Below, piece by piece: positions 37,878 through 53,438 of a DNA stretch of 64,000 nucleotides (within the stretch, counting starts at the first letter, position 1; each line of letters starts with the position of its first letter). Location: the NCBI GenBank assembly GCA_041674405.1, contig JBAYVT010000002.1:23158-87157 (forward strand). The letters are read 5' to 3'. The stretch comes from Patescibacteria group bacterium (GTDB lineage Bacteria; Patescibacteriota; UBA1384; XYA2-FULL-43-10). The notes beneath the pieces were generated by a model. The model was not told the origin of the DNA. It ran no database searches and was given only the letters and a program-made list of their open reading frames with translations. The translations under genes were made by a program, and so were the position numbers.

Positions 37878-37906
37878 TTGACATAATTTAAAAATATTGT
37901 TAAAGT
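37878..37906 (+). promoter_or_regulatory. sigma70-like promoter TTGACA-17-TAAAGT driving the ncRNA-tRNA unit
   Basis: Seen in sequence. Confidence 0.4.
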
Positions 37907-37913
37907 CGTTTTT

Positions 37914-38094
37914 GTCGGTTTCGCGGGAGATCGAAACCTGACGGGGCGAGGGTTCAAGGAGTCCGCTCCAGTCTCCCGCCTAATGGTGGCGAAGCGAAAG
38001 CTTATTGCCGAGAGGCAATCGCAAGTAACCAATCTTGCCGCCATCCCAAACATTAAACCGCCCATGGGCGGTTAAGCTTGCCTCTTTGGAGGCA
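37914..38094 (+). ncRNA. unassigned GC-rich structured RNA (~180 nt) co-transcribed with tRNA-Ile
   Basis: Multiple perfect hairpins: ggtttcg/cgaaacc, ggag-tccg-ctcc, attgcc-gaga-ggcaat, ccgccca/tgggcgg, tgcctc-tttg-gaggca. The only track ORF here (76 aa, minus strand) is implausible. Confidence 0.35.
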
Positions 38095-38171
38095 GGGTAC
38101 GTAGCTCAGTTGGATAGAGCGTCTCCCTGATAAGGAGAAGGCCGGGGGTTCAATCCCCTCCGTACCCACCA
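38095..38171 (+). tRNA. tRNA-Ile (anticodon GAU), CCA encoded
   Basis: Acceptor stem GGGTACG/CGTACCC. D-arm GCTCAGTTGGATAGAGC. Anticodon loop CTGATAA. T-arm GGGGGTTCAATCCCCTC. Discriminator A followed by CCA. Confidence 0.85.
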
Positions 38172-38176
38172 CCCTT

Positions 38177-38216
38177 CCCTCTCTGCGCCTCGCGCAGAGA
38201 GGGTTTCCCGTTTTTA
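38177..38216 (+). terminator. intrinsic terminator ccctctctgcg-loop-cgcagagaggg followed by tttcccgttttt
   Basis: Seen in sequence. Confidence 0.7.
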
Positions 38217-47874: not shown

Positions 47875-49254
47875 TTAAATCCTCTGGCAATCAAAAACAA
47901 CAGGATATTTATTATCAAAACAAGCTGAACAAAATCCTGTATTACCAGAAGCTCGATGTAGCCCATCTAGGCTCAAATAATGCACTCCCTCTACTCCGAG
48001 GTATTTTTCCAGTGCCGGCAAATCAAGTTTGGAGGCAATTAATTCCTCTTCTTTTGCCATATCAATGCCATAGTAACACGGGTGTTTTACTGGTGGGCTC
48101 GCTACAATTATTCGGATTTCCTTTGCACCGGCTTCGCGTACCATTTTTACGATTTCCTTAGATGTCGAGCCACGAACAATAGAATCATCAACCAGGCCAA
48201 CTCGCTTGCCATTGATTAATTTTTTTAACACATTTAATTTCAAACGTACTCCCGAGATCCTGACTGAACTTGAAGGATCAATAAAAAGACGTTTTGCTTG
48301 GGGTGTTTTAATGATTCCCCTGCCATATGAGACACCCGAGGCGCTGTGAAATCCAATTGCCGATGCGATTCCTGAGTCTGGAATTGGAACAATAATATCT
48401 AGCTTCTTTTTTAATATCTGATTTTCTTCAAATAAAATTTTCCCTAATTTATGGCGAAACATTTCATTCGGAGTACCGTTCAAAATACTATCCGGCCTTG
48501 ATAAATATATTTTCTCAAAAACACAAAAACTAACCTTACTTCCTCCATGCAAATATTTACTGGATATTATCTTTCCACTGGAGAAAACTAGCATAGTGCC
48601 CGCCCCAACCTCCTTTATATTTTTTGCACCCATTTGATCCAGAGCACAAGTTTCAGAAGCAAGCATAAAAATAGTTTCTTCGTTAGTTTTTGCCCTCCCA
48701 TAAAAAAGAGGCCTGATTCCTTTCGGATCACGTACAGCGATTAATTTTTTAGCGGTTAAAACAAGAAGAGAAAAGGATCCACAAATTCGATTACAAGTTT
48801 CAGCGACTGCTTGTTCAATAGTTTTTTCATTTGAATGCGCAATCAACGATGCAATTAATTCTGTGTCGCTATCTCCTGATAACTTAATTCGGCGGCTTAT
48901 CATTTCTTGGCGTAATTTAGAACTATCAATATTGCCGTTATGAACAACTGAAACATGATATTTTCCTCTTTTTTCAACTGGCTGGGCATTTTCTATAACT
49001 GATCCTCCGGTTGTCGAATAACGATTTTGCCCGACTGCAATATTGCCGGTAAGCGGAGTAATAGTTTCTTGGCGAAAAATTTCGCTTACCAGTCCTTGTT
49101 TTTTGTATGTCTTGATTCTTTTGCCGTTTGATACCGAAATTCCAGCAGATTCTTGTCCCCGGCCCTGAATACTCTGAAGACCAATAACAAGAAGGCTTGC
49201 CAACATGAATGAATCCTTATTTTTTTCGGATATCGCTCCAACTATTCCACACAT
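47875..49254 (-). CDS. purF: amidophosphoribosyltransferase
   Basis: N-terminal MCGIVG (Ntn Cys). PRTase motif VVLVDDSIVRGSTS. Confidence 0.8.
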   Translation of the reverse strand: MCGIVGAISEKNKDSFMLASLLVIGLQSIQGRGQESAGISVSNGKRIKTYKKQGLVSEIFRQETITPLTGNIAVGQNRYSTTGGSVIENAQPVEKRGKYHVSVVHNGNIDSSKLRQEMISRRIKLSGDSDTELIASLIAHSNEKTIEQAVAETCNRICGSFSLLVLTAKKLIAVRDPKGIRPLFYGRAKTNEETIFMLASETCALDQMGAKNIKEVGAGTMLVFSSGKIISSKYLHGGSKVSFCVFEKIYLSRPDSILNGTPNEMFRHKLGKILFEENQILKKKLDIIVPIPDSGIASAIGFHSASGVSYGRGIIKTPQAKRLFIDPSSSVRISGVRLKLNVLKKLINGKRVGLVDDSIVRGSTSKEIVKMVREAGAKEIRIIVASPPVKHPCYYGIDMAKEEELIASKLDLPALEKYLGVEGVHYLSLDGLHRASGNTGFCSACFDNKYPVVFDCQRI

Positions 49255-49436
49255 GGTAATCCTTTTGTAATTAAAACTAAATCATCCCAATTTCATCTTA
49301 TATCTTTTACCCTGAAATACAAAAAATGCATTAAAATTTTGTGCACATTTTTTGTTCTCCTAGATGATTTGATATTTAAATCGGGAAAATTTGATTAAGG
49401 GAAGATATATATCCTAACCAAAATAAATCAGAGCGA

Positions 49437-49463
49437 TTGACAAAACTACCCTTATGTTATAAT
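49437..49463 (+). promoter_or_regulatory. near-consensus sigma70 promoter TTGACA-15nt-TGtTATAAT (extended -10)
   Basis: Seen in sequence. Followed by AGGAGG at 49501-49506 and the ATG at 49509. Confidence 0.55.
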
Positions 49464-49508
49464 ATTCCAAGTTGGACTCATACACCGACATACAGGCTAC
49501 AGGAGGAG

Positions 49509-50102
49509 ATGTTCGTGATCGACAAAGTTAGAGAGTTCAAACCATGGGAGAAGCCGAGGGCTGACGGGAAGCACAGCATCAGCTTCTTGATCGGGTTTCG
49601 TGCCGTACTTGCGATCCCGATCCAGCACTATGACGCCGTTCTCGGCGGTCTCTACTGCGTCGCCGTCCTCCTGCTTAGAGAGGATGGGGACCATGAGATC
49701 AGAGACCGGTCGAGCGGGCTCTTGGAAATCTTGGCAGGCCGAGAACAGGATAACCTGCCACTTTCCGATCCGGCCAAGCTCGAGATGTTGGTCGGGGTCC
49801 TGTCTTCGATCTCATCCAACTCGACCGCCTACCGGCTGTACAGGAACACGGCAACCCGCAGGGTCGTGATCGTCCGCGAGGAAGGCGAAATCGGCGAAGG
49901 GGCTACAGAGAAACCTGAGAAAAGACCAGCAGGCATCGCTGCCTGGTCCGTCGAAAGGTTCAATGAATGTCTCGCTCGTGGCCACCACCGGTTCGAGGGA
50001 CGCATTCTGGTGAACAACCGAGGGGGCCAGCCTTACGAGCTGATGGTGTGCACTGACTGCAGAGTCACGATCGCAGCGATGCAAGTGATCCCGGGCAAAT
50101 AG
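49509..50102 (+). CDS. island ORF1, 197-aa hypothetical protein (two hydrophobic segments plus a soluble C-terminal part)
   Basis: A long stop-free ORF in GC-rich sequence with a strong SD. The track ORF starts at 49437, but that ATG lies inside the promoter. Confidence 0.55.
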   Translation: MFVIDKVREFKPWEKPRADGKHSISFLIGFRAVLAIPIQHYDAVLGGLYCVAVLLLREDGDHEIRDRSSGLLEILAGREQDNLPLSDPAKLEMLVGVLSSISSNSTAYRLYRNTATRRVVIVREEGEIGEGATEKPEKRPAGIAAWSVERFNECLARGHHRFEGRILVNNRGGQPYELMVCTDCRVTIAAMQVIPGK

Positions 50103-50128
50103 CCCAAGAAGGAGGATAGAGCCGAGCG

Positions 50129-50165
50129 GCCCCGATTCAATTCGGGGTCGTTCTGCGTTTTATCC
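50129..50165 (+). terminator. weak hairpin gccccga-ttcaat-tcggggt followed by ...gcgtttt
   Basis: Seen in sequence. Confidence 0.35.
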
Positions 50166-50246
50166 ACAGCAATATTTTTGACAGCGGTATATATCAAGTG
50201 GTAAGTCTAAAATAGATCGTATTACTTCCGCATCGGGGTGATTTTG

Positions 50247-50639
50247 ATGGGAAGTTCGTCAGGTCGGCGTCGACGCCCGTCTTCGGTATGGAAGCAAGCA
50301 TACCGCGCGAATGGTAAAGCTCACAAGCTCACCAAGTCGGGCGAAGACGAGAAGGCTGCCGAGGCGTTTTACCAGAAGGTAGGCTGTGTCTGCGAGACAT
50401 CGCTTACCCCAGGCTTTACGCAATGGCAATGGGATCCTGTCGTAGAAGCCGTCTCGGTATCTCTAGCACACCCGCCGAAGAAAGAACGGCACAAGCGACT
50501 CCATGTTCCTCCAGACGTACTGGAGGAATACATCAGAGGGAACGGCTTTTCAAGCCGCGAAAGGAACTTCCTTCTGAAGCGCCTTCGGCAAGTACTTCGG
50601 TACCGAGAGAAAGGCGCTCCCCAACCTTACGTTCGGTAG
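50247..50639 (+). CDS. island ORF2, ~131-aa very basic hypothetical protein (MGSSSGRRRRPSS...KRLRQVLRYREK)
   Basis: Stop-free in GC-rich sequence. TTGACA at about 50176 upstream. Weak SD (ggggtg). Confidence 0.45.
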   Translation: MGSSSGRRRRPSSVWKQAYRANGKAHKLTKSGEDEKAAEAFYQKVGCVCETSLTPGFTQWQWDPVVEAVSVSLAHPPKKERHKRLHVPPDVLEEYIRGNGFSSRERNFLLKRLRQVLRYREKGAPQPYVR

Positions 50640-50671
50640 GCAACCCTACTCTATCAACCCCGCAGTAACCT

Positions 50672-50710
50672 CGCGCGGGCCATCCGTGGCTCGCGCGTTC
50701 CCCGTTTTTT
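50672..50710 (+). terminator. intrinsic terminator cgcgcgggcc-atccgt-ggctcgcgcg followed by ttccccgtttttt
   Basis: Seen in sequence. Confidence 0.65.
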
Positions 50711-50721
50711 AGTACAAAATT

Positions 50722-53438
<2,717 letters not shown>

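What the first reader, a model, noticed from the sequence alone, without database searches (positions are those of the whole stretch)
49437..50713. GC-rich, opposite-strand two-gene island with a consensus promoter between purF and ligA
Between purF (ends 49254, minus strand) and ligA (starts 50722, minus strand) the composition switches abruptly. The flanks are AT-rich (~35-40% GC by eye) and about 1.25 kb in between is ~55-60% GC with strongly G/C-biased third codon positions. It carries two plus-strand ORFs that run against the surrounding minus-strand genes. ORF1 (ATG 49509, 197 aa) sits behind a textbook TTGACA-15-TGtTATAAT promoter (49437-49463) and an AGGAGG SD. ORF2 (ATG 50247, ~131 aa) has its own TTGACA and is highly basic: N-terminus MGSSSGRRRRPSS, C-terminus KRLRQVLRYREK. 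Each ORF has its own GC-hairpin terminator. By my rough estimate a 197-codon stop-free frame at this composition has a chance probability of about 1e-3, so ORF1 at least is probably real. I recognise no motif in either protein. ORF1 has two hydrophobic segments and a C-terminal CTDC. ORF2 looks nucleic-acid binding. Candidate explanations are a horizontally acquired two-gene cassette (defence, toxin-antitoxin-like or regulatory module) from a high-GC donor, or an assembly chimera or contaminant.
Basis: partly seen in the sequence, partly recalled or inferred. Interest (0 to 1): 0.85.

Follow-up and report, generated by a model that had tools for sequence, protein, structure and literature searches.

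The report
GC-rich orphan-gene islet in Berkelbacteria
The GC-rich stretch is a real pair of small protein genes with no known relatives, sitting in a slot next to the DNA ligase gene that one group of ultra-small (CPR) bacteria always fills with fast-changing, mostly GC-rich genes; it is neither an assembly error nor a recent import, and its function is unknown.

Summary
Window 49465-50713 is 55.7% GC against 40.3% for the whole window. It is the strongest tetranucleotide outlier, and its two plus-strand ORFs are the only GC3 outliers among 66 genes.

It is not a chimera. Contigs from three sequencing runs and one ENA assembly cover the junctions with 100% nucleotide identity.

It does not look like a recent import from a high-GC donor. 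The host is a Candidatus Berkelbacteria (Patescibacteria) bacterium. All 25 ORF1-family loci recovered lie in the same place, opposite in strand, between gatC and ligA. ORF2 relatives lie there too.

Both families are under purifying selection (dN/dS 0.07-0.37). Neither matches Pfam, NCBIfam, PHROGs, PADLOC, Rfam, phage records, plasmid records or PDB folds.

ORF1 is acidic: a confidently modelled unmatched N-domain, an acidic linker and a C..H..CxxC zinc-ribbon-like tail. ORF2 is basic, with an 'IRGNGF' motif.

The slot is hypervariable. High GC3 persists at saturated synonymous sites in at least ten lineages, so something maintains it. I favour recombination-driven allele turnover with GC-biased conversion; this is untested.

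Interest is moderate: two new orphan families and an unexplained compositional anomaly.

The parts
49437..49465 (+). Promoter P1: TTGACA (49437-49442), 15-nt spacer, extended -10 TGTTATAAT (49455-49463); alternatively TTGACA-17-TAATAT (49460-65)
   Evidence: Sequence and consensus scan. The same TTGACA-N15-TATAATAT lies upstream of the ORF1 homologs in L005 and L006. A TTGACA -35 precedes the first islet gene in most related loci. No transcript data are available.
49501..49506 (+). Shine-Dalgarno AGGAGG
   Evidence: Sequence. It lies 2 nt before ATG 49509 and 8 nt before GTG 49515. GGAG abutting the ATG is conserved in L005 and L006.
49509..50102 (+). ORF1: 197 aa from ATG 49509, or 195 aa from GTG 49515. 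Acidic-to-neutral soluble protein with a novel alpha/beta N-domain (about res 10-125), an acidic Glu/Pro linker (about 126-150) and a C-terminal C154..H160..C181-x2-C184 zinc-ribbon-like domain.
50124..50163 (+). Intrinsic terminator T1 of ORF1 (12-bp stem, 8 GC pairs, T-run)
   Evidence: Terminator scan. The hairpin is conserved in L005 with a compensatory C-G to A-T change, and is also present in L006.
50160..50168 (+). Perfect DnaA-box 9-mer TTATCCACA between T1 and P2 (role unknown)
   Evidence: There are only 2 perfect copies in the 64 kb. The same 9-mer sits at the same relative position in L006 1041-1049. There is no cluster, so this is not an origin.
50179..50208 (+). Putative weak promoter P2 of ORF2: TTGACA (50179-84), 18-nt spacer, TAAGTC
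   Evidence: Sequence; the consensus scan does not report it. L006 has TTGACT-18-TATGAT at the same place. A 'TTGACA-aaGTATATAT' element recurs before islet genes in L011, L067 and L015.
50247..50639 (+). ORF2: 130 aa from ATG 50247 (alternative GTG 50238). Basic protein (pI 10.2) with a conserved 'LH-x-P...(Y/H)I(R/K)GNG(F/Y)' motif and a basic C-terminal tail.
   Evidence: Relatives in the same gap in L006, L011/L064/L066, L120 and L121. dN/dS is 0.07-0.24 in the L011 trio. pI is 8.6-10.2 across the family. No family or PDB match. The pipeline behind L001/L002 did not call it as a gene.
50672..50710 (+). Terminator T2 of ORF2: 11-bp GC hairpin (50672-50697) with a T-run at 50705-50710, ending 11 nt before the ligA stop codon
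   Evidence: Sequence and MFE structure. The terminator at the analogous position in L006 was found by the scan.
47875..49254 (-). Context: purF (amidophosphoribosyltransferase). It lies between gatC and the islet only in this genome.
   Evidence: ORF list and Pfam GATase_6/7. It is absent from the gap in all other relatives.
50722..52767 (-). Context: ligA (NAD-dependent DNA ligase), the conserved anchor on the islet's 3' side
   Evidence: Pfam architecture. It has 67-82% identical orthologs in Berkelbacteria MAGs.

Best explanation
SHOWN. The region is a genuine chromosomal locus of a Candidatus Berkelbacteria (Patescibacteria/CPR) bacterium. It is a small accessory 'islet' at a fixed slot between the gatCAB operon (here gatC plus an inserted purF) and the 3' end of ligA, transcribed against both neighbours.

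In this genome it holds two separate monocistronic units, each with a sigma-70-type promoter and an intrinsic terminator. ORF1 encodes a soluble, mostly acidic protein of about 195 aa. It has an N-terminal alpha/beta domain with no detectable fold relative, an acidic Glu/Pro linker, and a C-terminal C..H..CxxC zinc-ribbon-like module. ORF2 encodes a 130-aa basic protein with an 'IRGNGF' motif and a basic tail. Both belong to clade-restricted orphan families found only in this slot, and both are under purifying selection.

The slot is hypervariable. Relatives carry ORF1 alone, ORF2 alone, both, or other small orphan genes. Nucleotide identity collapses exactly at the islet edges. The GC-richness is a long-standing property of the slot in at least ten lineages and is kept at saturated synonymous sites. 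It is not the un-ameliorated trace of a recent transfer.

INFERRED.
(i) The islet evolves by allele and cassette turnover through homologous recombination anchored in the conserved flanks. GC-biased gene conversion at this recombination hotspot keeps GC high at all codon positions.
(ii) The products act in the cytoplasm as nucleic-acid- or protein-binding factors (zinc ribbon, basic tail). The turnover pattern suggests a role in a genetic conflict, such as phage or host interaction, rather than housekeeping.

Rough confidence: 'what it is' about 0.85; the turnover/gBGC explanation of GC about 0.35; the conflict-related function about 0.25.
For: Real locus: L001-L004 are 100% identical across the junctions.

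Taxon: the nearest ligA sequences are Berkelbacteria MAGs.

Fixed slot: all 25 ORF1-family loci recovered, 17 from the ligA-anchored scans, lie between ligA and gatC on the opposite strand. No locus with ligA below 60% identity has one.

Coding: dN/dS is 0.18-0.37 for ORF1 and 0.07-0.24 for ORF2-like genes. A 14-member ORF1 alignment has near-invariant L85, P88, L110, V122, H160, C181 and C184. The AlphaFold model has pLDDT 76.7.

Orphan status: nothing in Pfam, NCBIfam, PHROGs, PADLOC, Rfam, PDB sequences or PDB/BFVD folds. Only 12 hits at E<=1e-3 (9 of them credible, about 180-210 aa) in 1.84 billion representatives.

Separate units: promoters and terminators are conserved in L005 and L006.

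Maintained GC: islet GC3 is 0.57-0.73 against 0.33-0.46 in ligA across lineages, and the gap is the GC outlier in 10 of 16 loci. Window versus L006 four-fold sites show 0.35 identity against 0.33 expected at saturation, at 75-79% GC.

Turnover: in L009 versus L014 the flanks are 80-93% identical up to the ligA stop, while the islet is about 50-60% identical. ORF1-like dS is at least 2.2 against 1.09 for ligA, and amino-acid identity is 35% against 91%. ORF1 and ligA distances are uncorrelated (Spearman 0.22, p=0.19). Gene content varies between relatives.

gBGC precedent in bacteria: PMC4450053.
Against: No transcript, protein or population data were available, so promoters, terminators and expression are sequence inferences only.

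No direct evidence for recombination or gBGC was obtained. Three lineages (L016, L010, L008) carry ORF1-family alleles at host-like GC, so high GC is not obligatory. In the L011/L064/L066 trio the islet co-diverges with ligA (dS ratio about 0.75-0.8), which shows simple vertical descent on short time scales. An unsampled GC-rich donor pool cannot be excluded.

The functional inference rests only on a zinc-ribbon-like motif, charge and evolutionary pattern. There is no match to any defence, toxin or regulator family. The C-terminal domain is modelled at only about 70 pLDDT.
Confidence: 0.6

Rival explanations
1. Recent horizontal acquisition of a two-gene cassette from a high-GC donor. The GC excess would be un-ameliorated donor composition.
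For: Extreme compositional outlier: GC 0.557 against 0.403, GC3 up to 0.72, tetranucleotide r 0.07. Opposite strand with its own promoters and terminators. GC1 and GC2 are also raised.
Against: The same families occupy the same slot in at least a dozen diverged Berkelbacteria lineages. Synonymous sites are saturated between the window and L006, yet both keep 75-79% GC at four-fold sites. There is no homolog outside this locus among 5.8 billion or 1.84 billion proteins, INPHARED phages, PLSDB plasmids or IMG/VR. There is no integrase, tRNA or convincing flanking repeat. ORF2-like dS is close to ligA dS in close relatives.
Confidence: 0.07
2. Repeated cassette replacement from an unsampled GC-rich gene pool, for example GC-rich Berkelbacteria relatives or their mobile elements. 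Alleles would spend most of their history at high GC and be swapped into this slot by recombination in the conserved flanks.
For: Identity breaks sharply at the islet edges between L009 and L014. Islet dS exceeds flank dS. ORF1 and ligA distances are uncorrelated. GC-rich and GC-poor alleles occur in genomes whose ligA is 86-91% identical (L009 and L014 against L010).
Against: No member of such a pool was found in any collection. All 25 recovered family loci are in AT-rich Berkelbacteria contexts. GC switches exactly at the transcription-unit edges with no GC-rich flank carried along.
Confidence: 0.2
3. Assembly chimera or contaminant DNA joined to a Berkelbacteria contig.
For: The compositional switch is abrupt.
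Against: Contigs from three different SRR runs and one ENA assembly cover the purF-ORF1 junction, the ORF2-ligA junction or both at 100% identity. Diverged relatives have the same architecture.
Confidence: 0.01
4. Toxin-antitoxin-like or other two-component module, with acidic ORF1 neutralising basic ORF2.
For: Small acidic protein followed by a small basic protein (pI about 5-7.7 against 8.6-10.2). The ORF1-then-ORF2 order recurs in the window, L006, L120 and L121. The locus is hypervariable.
Against: The genes are separated by 144 nt containing an intrinsic terminator and a second promoter, and this layout is conserved in L006. ORF1 occurs alone in L005, L055-58, L124, L016 and L010, and ORF2 occurs alone in L011/L064/L066. 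There are no hits to PADLOC or to Pfam toxin or antitoxin families.
Confidence: 0.1
5. The region is a structured non-coding RNA or a GC-rich transcriptional spacer, and the ORFs are by-products of GC-rich sequence having few stop codons.
For: GC-rich islands in AT-rich genomes are often RNA genes. Dinucleotide-shuffle folding z-scores are -3.3 and -4.9. A stop-free frame of ORF2's length arises in 37% of shuffles.
Against: No Rfam match even at E<=10. dN/dS is well below 1 in both families. Protein-level motifs are conserved at 22-58% identity while third positions are scrambled. ORF1 has a confident predicted fold. Folding beyond synonymous-codon shuffles (z from -0.02 to -2.5) overlaps control genes (z from +0.6 to -3.0).
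Confidence: 0.03

Closest known systems
Hypervariable islets or 'hotspots' at fixed positions between conserved core genes (for example defence hotspots in enterobacteria and Pseudomonas, and hypervariable regions of streamlined genomes such as SAR11); from my own knowledge
   Same: Conserved flanking core genes (ligA, gatC). Gene content differs between close relatives. Nucleotide identity drops sharply at the edges. Occupants are lineage-specific small genes.
   Different: It is tiny (0.3-3.8 kb, 1-3 genes). It contains no recognisable defence, surface or mobility gene. The occupants are mostly GC-rich relative to the genome, whereas such regions are usually AT-rich or neutral.
Classical horizontally acquired genomic island with atypical GC
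   Same: Compositional outlier in GC, GC3 and tetranucleotides, with opposite orientation.
   Different: No integrase, tRNA or att repeats. It is present at the same site across a clade. GC is kept despite synonymous saturation. No donor homologs were found.
Type II toxin-antitoxin pairs
   Same: Adjacent small acidic and basic proteins in a variable locus.
   Different: Separate promoters and terminators with a 144-nt spacer. The partners are dispensable for each other. There is no family match.
Zinc-ribbon domains (TFIIS / LEF-5 C-terminal type; Pfam clan Zn_Beta_Ribbon)
   Same: ORF1's C-terminus has four near-invariant potential ligands (C154, H160, C181, C184) on three short beta-strands. 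The weak Foldseek hits to the C-terminal stretch include LEF-5 C-terminal domains.
   Different: The first ligand pair is C-x4-5-H rather than a CxxC/H knuckle. No hit is significant (E > 0.1). The attached N-domain has no known relative.
GC3 heterogeneity driven by GC-biased gene conversion in recombining bacterial genes (Lassalle et al. 2015, PMC4450053)
   Same: Locally raised GC at synonymous and non-synonymous positions in a locus with signs of allele exchange.
   Different: The shift here, about +0.3 in GC3 confined to about 1.2 kb, looks far larger than the genome-wide gene-to-gene differences I recall for bacteria (my recollection, not checked in the paper). Recombination at this locus has not been measured.

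Membership tests
Recent horizontally acquired genomic island | Atypical base composition relative to the host | tested here: met
   GC 0.557 against 0.403; GC3 about +5 sd (ORF1) and +3 sd (ORF2); tetranucleotide r 0.07 against a median of 0.885.
Recent horizontally acquired genomic island | Mobility signatures: integrase or transposase, tRNA or att-site direct repeats at the borders | tested here: not met
   No such genes were called in 20 kb. The only tRNA is 11 kb away. The flanking repeats found are short, AT-rich and 72-86% matched.
Recent horizontally acquired genomic island | Patchy presence with empty sites in close relatives, and homologs in a plausible donor | tested here: not met
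   The slot is occupied by the same families across the clade. Even the short gaps in L067 and L052 hold a small GC-rich unit; the shortest, L013 (296 bp), is AT-rich (0.334 GC). No homolog was found outside the slot.
Type II toxin-antitoxin module | Two genes co-transcribed as one operon with a short or overlapping junction | tested here: not met
   The 144-nt spacer holds a 12-bp terminator hairpin and a second -35. The layout is the same in L006. This is sequence-level evidence only.
Type II toxin-antitoxin module | Obligate co-occurrence of the two partners | tested here: not met
   ORF1 family alone in L005, L055-58, L124, L016 and L010. ORF2 family alone in L011/L064/L066.
Type II toxin-antitoxin module | Homology to a known toxin or antitoxin fold or family | tested here: not met
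   No Pfam, NCBIfam or PADLOC hit. No PDB fold match for ORF1. The ORF2 fold was not modelled.
Known anti-phage defence systems (PADLOC-DB v2) | HMM match to a component of a described or candidate system | tested here: not met
   0 families at E<=10 for both proteins.
Structured RNA family (Rfam 15) | Covariance-model match | tested here: not met
   Nothing at gathering score in the window apart from one tRNA. In 49200-50800 the only hit is a chance snoRNA match at E=6.8.
Zinc-ribbon domain (ORF1 C-terminus) | Four conserved Cys/His ligands in two pairs | tested here: met
   C181 and C184 are invariant and H160 nearly so in 13-14 sequences. C154 is conserved in most. The first pair is spaced C-x4-5-H, which is not canonical.
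Zinc-ribbon domain (ORF1 C-terminus) | Three-stranded ribbon fold matching known zinc ribbons; metal binding | tested here: inconclusive
   Three strands are predicted at pLDDT about 70. The Foldseek BFVD hits include LEF-5 C-terminal domains, but at E 0.1-0.7. Zinc binding cannot be tested with these tools.
Hypervariable hotspot flanked by core genes | Conserved flanks, variable cargo between relatives, sharp identity breakpoints | tested here: met
   The ligA and gatC anchors are present in all loci. There are at least four cargo families and gaps of 0.3-3.8 kb. In L009 against L014, identity falls from 0.91 to 0.51 within about 200 nt of the ligA stop.
Hypervariable hotspot flanked by core genes | Elevated recombination or allele exchange at the locus | not testable with these tools
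   Only indirect evidence: islet dS exceeds flank dS, and distances are uncorrelated. Population read data are needed.

The most novel reading that the evidence does not exclude
The gatC-ligA slot of this Berkelbacteria clade is a dedicated, strongly transcribed 'nursery' for new small proteins. A local GC-raising process (biased gene conversion or another locus-specific bias) keeps about 1 kb of DNA GC-rich. That suppresses stop codons, lets long ORFs arise, and lets them turn over. On this reading ORF1, ORF2 and the other islet families are products of in-situ gene birth and diversification, not imports. ORF1's N-domain would then be a genuinely new fold.
Probability: 0.12. Interest if true: 0.85.

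Novelty: new variant of a known kind. Interest (0 to 1): 0.5.

Why it matters
If the reading is right, a minimal-genome CPR lineage keeps one fixed, strongly promoted slot for fast-evolving small proteins whose base composition is held far from the genomic equilibrium.

That offers three things. First, two clean orphan protein families, one with a confidently predicted domain that has no PDB fold match, as targets for structural and functional work in organisms where most accessory biology is unknown. Second, a compact natural test case for what maintains local GC in bacteria: gBGC, selection or import. Third, a caution that a GC-deviant island with its own promoter is not by itself evidence of recent horizontal transfer or misassembly.

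If it is merely a variable orphan-gene locus of unknown function, its value is limited to annotation. ORF2 is currently uncalled, and ORF1 is labelled 'hypothetical protein'.

Tried and rejected
- Rfam at gathering score and at E<=10: nothing in the islet.
- Pfam, PHROGs, PADLOC and NCBIfam on both proteins, on family alignments and on the other islet ORFs: nothing credible.
- PDB sequence-profile searches: only chance or low-complexity hits.
- First AlphaFold run with a 3-sequence alignment: unusable, pLDDT 39.6. The second run with 13 sequences was usable.
- ORF1 profile scans of GTDB genomes, JGI metagenomes and IMG/VR through back-translated patterns found nothing. One alignment was too divergent to use. 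Relatives were instead recovered by anchoring on ligA and searching the gaps with tblastn and HMMs.
- tblastn of both proteins against phage and plasmid collections: no match.
- The long repetitive proteins P0007, P0010 and P0013 from the representative search are Ig-like or JmjC repeat proteins. I rejected them as spurious repeat-inflated hits.
- mRNA-structure hypothesis for the high GC: synonymous-codon-shuffle z-scores of islet genes overlap those of control genes. An earlier script timed out.
- Membrane or secreted protein idea for ORF1: no conserved hydrophobic helix.
- Origin of replication, prompted by the DnaA box: there is a single box, no cluster and no skew inflection.
- Flanking direct or inverted repeats as att or TIR sites: only weak AT-rich matches.
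- Literature search on Berkelbacteria and GC content: nothing relevant.
Full report
1. THE OBSERVATION

The composition switch is real and sharp. Window 49465-50713 is 55.7% GC. The window as a whole is 40.3%, and the spacer in front of the islet is 26.9%. The 200-nt profile climbs from 0.30 to 0.56-0.605 and falls back to 0.39 at ligA. No other kilobase of the window exceeds 0.47.

The 1250-nt window starting at 49501 has a tetranucleotide correlation of 0.07 with the whole window. The median is 0.885, and this is the lowest value of 251 windows. Among 66 long ORFs, GC3 averages 0.376 with sd 0.061. ORF1 (0.68-0.72) and ORF2 (0.57) are the only outliers.

Four corrections apply:
- AGGAGG ends 2 nt before ATG 49509, so GTG 49515 is an equally good start.
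- ORF2's TTGACA has only a poor -10.
- A stop-free frame of at least 197 codons arises in 3.3% of shuffled islands, and one of at least 130 codons in 37%. ORF length alone therefore proves little.
- ORF1's 'hydrophobic segments' are predicted beta-strands, not membrane helices.

2. NOT A CHIMERA; WHOSE GENOME IT IS

The exact ORF1 protein is encoded on contigs from one ENA assembly and three different SRR runs. These contigs (L001-L004) span one or both junctions and are 100.000% identical to the window.

The flanks are gatA, gatC and purF on one side and ligA on the other, all on the minus strand. The nearest ligA sequences in GTDB species representatives are Candidatus Berkelbacteria and related Patescibacteria MAGs at 67-72% identity. 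NCBI holds the 197-aa ORF1 as 'hypothetical protein' MFA7244003.1 from a Patescibacteria MAG. The pipeline behind L001/L002 did not call ORF2 as a gene.

3. BOTH ORFS ARE REAL, CLADE-RESTRICTED GENES TIED TO ONE SLOT

ORF1 has homologs at 56% (L005) and 47% (L006) identity. An exhaustive HMMER search of 1.84 billion representatives with a profile found only seven further credible clusters, all about 180-210 aa.

I anchored on ligA and searched the neighbouring DNA. The ligA-gatC-gatA order is widespread in Patescibacteria. In the Berkelbacteria subclade with ligA at or above 67% identity, the ligA-gatC gap carries ORF1-family genes on the opposite strand in L007/L055-58, L008, L009/L062, L010/L061, L012/L063, L014/L068/L118/L119, L016 and L065. 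It carries ORF2-family genes in L006, L011/L064/L066, L120 and L121. Every family member whose context could be read is in this slot. No locus with ligA below 60% identity has one.

dN/dS is 0.18-0.37 for ORF1. It is 0.07-0.24 for the ORF2-like genes of three close relatives, whose dS (0.14-0.63) is close to that of their ligA (0.17-0.67). These are therefore translated genes that co-diverge with their neighbours on short time scales.

The promoter (TTGACA-N15-TATAATAT), the GGAG-ATG junction, terminator 1 (with a compensatory stem change in L005) and the second promoter-ORF2-terminator unit are all conserved in L005 and/or L006.

4. WHAT THE PROTEINS LOOK LIKE

A 14-sequence alignment of the ORF1 family shows:
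- an N-terminal (W/F)xPWxxP motif;
- a core 'LPLSDPxxLExLVxxLxSxS...YRLY....RVxIVREE';
- an acidic Glu/Pro linker;
- a C-terminal C154..H160..C181-x2-C184 pattern in which H160, C181 and C184 are (nearly) invariant.

AlphaFold2 with 13 sequences gave pLDDT 76.7. Confidence is about 90 over residues 10-125 (a beta-rich alpha/beta domain), the linker is disordered, and the C-terminus is a three-stranded module at about 70.

The family is mostly acidic (pI about 5; 7.7 in the window's copy) and has no conserved hydrophobic helix.

The ORF2 family is basic (pI 8.6-10.2). It has a helical N-part, an invariant H..NG within 'LHxP...(Y/H)I(R/K)GNG(F/Y)', and a Lys/Arg-rich tail.

Neither family matches Pfam, NCBIfam, PHROGs, PADLOC, PDB sequences, phage records or plasmid records. 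Nothing in the region matches Rfam.

5. THE SLOT IS HYPERVARIABLE

Gap length ranges from 0.3 to 3.8 kb. The cargo may be ORF1 alone, ORF2 alone, both in the order ORF1-ORF2, or other small orphan genes: a 115-125-aa family in L014 and L060, a 117-aa ORF, a 91-aa ORF, a possible 43-55-aa hydrophobic-plus-basic peptide, and a 131-aa membrane protein. Only the window's genome also has purF in the gap.

ORF1-family distances do not track ligA distances (Spearman 0.22, p=0.19). L009 and L014 share 91% identical ligA protein with dS 1.09, but their ORF1-like proteins are only 35% identical with dS at least 2.2. In a nucleotide alignment of these two loci, identity is 0.80-0.93 up to the ligA stop and then drops to about 0.5-0.6 within about 200 nt.

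This pattern fits allele or cassette replacement, or very old polymorphism, better than a uniformly raised mutation rate. In the L011 trio the islet's dS is no higher than that of ligA.

6. THE GC ANOMALY IS MAINTAINED, NOT RESIDUAL

Islet genes have GC3 of 0.57-0.73, against 0.33-0.46 for ligA. This holds in the window, L005, L006, L009, L011/L064/L066, L012, L014, L055, L060, L120 and L121. L124 is intermediate (0.50 against 0.35). L016, L010 and L008 are at host level. The gap is the GC outlier in 10 of 16 loci scanned.

Between the window and L006, four-fold sites in conserved codons are 35% identical, against 33% expected at saturation. Even so, both remain 75-79% G+C, while ligA is at 45-48%. 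GC1 and GC2 are raised too, so the pressure is not codon choice alone.

Folding stability beyond synonymous-codon shuffles does not differ from control genes. I therefore see no evidence for a specific RNA structure beyond the terminators.

The explanation I favour is GC-biased gene conversion at a locus that recombines often. A link between recombination and GC has been reported across bacteria (PMC4450053). This is an inference. Repeated import from an unsampled GC-rich pool, or selection for GC-rich transcripts, remains possible.

7. HOW IT MOST LIKELY WORKS

Shown by sequence and comparison: there are two independently promoted and terminated plus-strand genes. They are divergent from gatC/purF and convergent with ligA, and they encode a soluble acidic zinc-ribbon-like protein and a basic protein.

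Inferred: both act in the cytoplasm by binding nucleic acid or protein. Three features resemble loci involved in genetic conflict (phage or host interaction): a fixed position, a strong promoter, and rapid turnover with facultative partners.

A classical toxin-antitoxin operon is unlikely. The spacer is 144 nt and holds a terminator and a second promoter. Each partner occurs alone in some genomes. There is no family match.

I put about 0.85 on the description, about 0.35 on recombination/gBGC as the cause of the GC, and about 0.25 on a conflict-related role.

8. COMPARISON WITH KNOWN SYSTEMS, AND NOVELTY

The islet behaves like a miniature hypervariable hotspot between core genes. It fails the tests for a recent horizontal-transfer island: no mobility signatures, no empty sites and no donor. 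It also fails the tests for a TA module, for any PADLOC system and for any Rfam family.

The ORF1 C-terminus meets the ligand pattern of a zinc ribbon, but neither the fold nor metal binding could be confirmed.

I class the finding as a new variant of a known kind: a variable accessory islet carrying orphan genes. It has two undescribed protein families and an unusual, unexplained compositional signature that is maintained across the clade. Interest is moderate (0.5). It is not trivial either.

Noticed in passing
window 37879-38215 (+): A TTGACA promoter-like site is followed by a GC-rich (about 0.57) segment of about 190 nt at 37905-38094, directly upstream of tRNA-Ile(GAT) at 38095-38171, and then by a terminator hairpin. 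The segment folds with z=-3.34 and matches no Rfam family even at E<=1. It may be an unannotated small RNA co-transcribed with the tRNA.
   Followed up: partly
window 50160-50168 (+); L006 1041-1049: A perfect DnaA-box 9-mer TTATCCACA sits between ORF1's terminator and ORF2's -35, at the same relative position in the 47%-identical relative L006. The window has only two perfect copies and no cluster, so this is not an origin. It could be DnaA-dependent control of ORF2, or chance.
   Followed up: partly
window 47875-49254 (-): purF lies between gatC and the islet only in this genome (L001-L003). In every other relative, gatC directly adjoins the islet. purF itself therefore looks like an insertion into the same variable gap.
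   Followed up: partly
window 50247-50639 (+); L001 10733-11125: ORF2 was not called as a gene in the public gene calls for these contigs, and its exact sequence is absent from the 15-billion-protein collection. Its homologs in L006, L120 and L121 were called. This is probably a missed gene annotation.
   Followed up: partly
L009 4950-5900 vs L014; window 52764-53438 (-): A second hypervariable segment lies just upstream of ligA: identity between L009 and L014 falls to about 0.5 there, against 0.8-0.9 around it. The window's metallo-beta-lactamase-fold gene at that position has no tblastn match in the relatives' loci. ligA therefore seems to be flanked by variable DNA on both sides.
   Followed up: no
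L014 7828-8175 and 8262-8615; L060 8319-8696; L121 5585-5860; L067 3625-3792; L055 6604-6768; L015 3077-3472: Further GC-rich small orphan ORFs occupy the same gatC-ligA gap in relatives. They include a 115-125-aa family (L014/L060, E=7e-6), a 117-aa ORF, a 91-aa ORF and a possible 43-55-aa peptide with a hydrophobic helix and basic tail (L067/L055, E=0.01). A 131-aa membrane protein lies on the ligA strand in L015.
   Followed up: partly
L005 310-320, L014, L016, L011, L060 (upstream of gatC): A conserved ATTCTAGCAC motif lies next to the islet promoter. On the gatC strand it reads GTGCTAGAAT, an extended -10 (TGnTAnAAT). It is probably the divergent gatCAB promoter. The window lacks it at this position because purF intervenes.
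   Followed up: no
loci L025-L049, L080-L113: The ligA-gatC-gatA gene order is conserved far beyond Berkelbacteria, in many Patescibacteria MAGs whose ligA is 41-50% identical. Gaps range from about 10 bp to about 3 kb, and none carries ORF1- or ORF2-family genes.
   Followed up: partly
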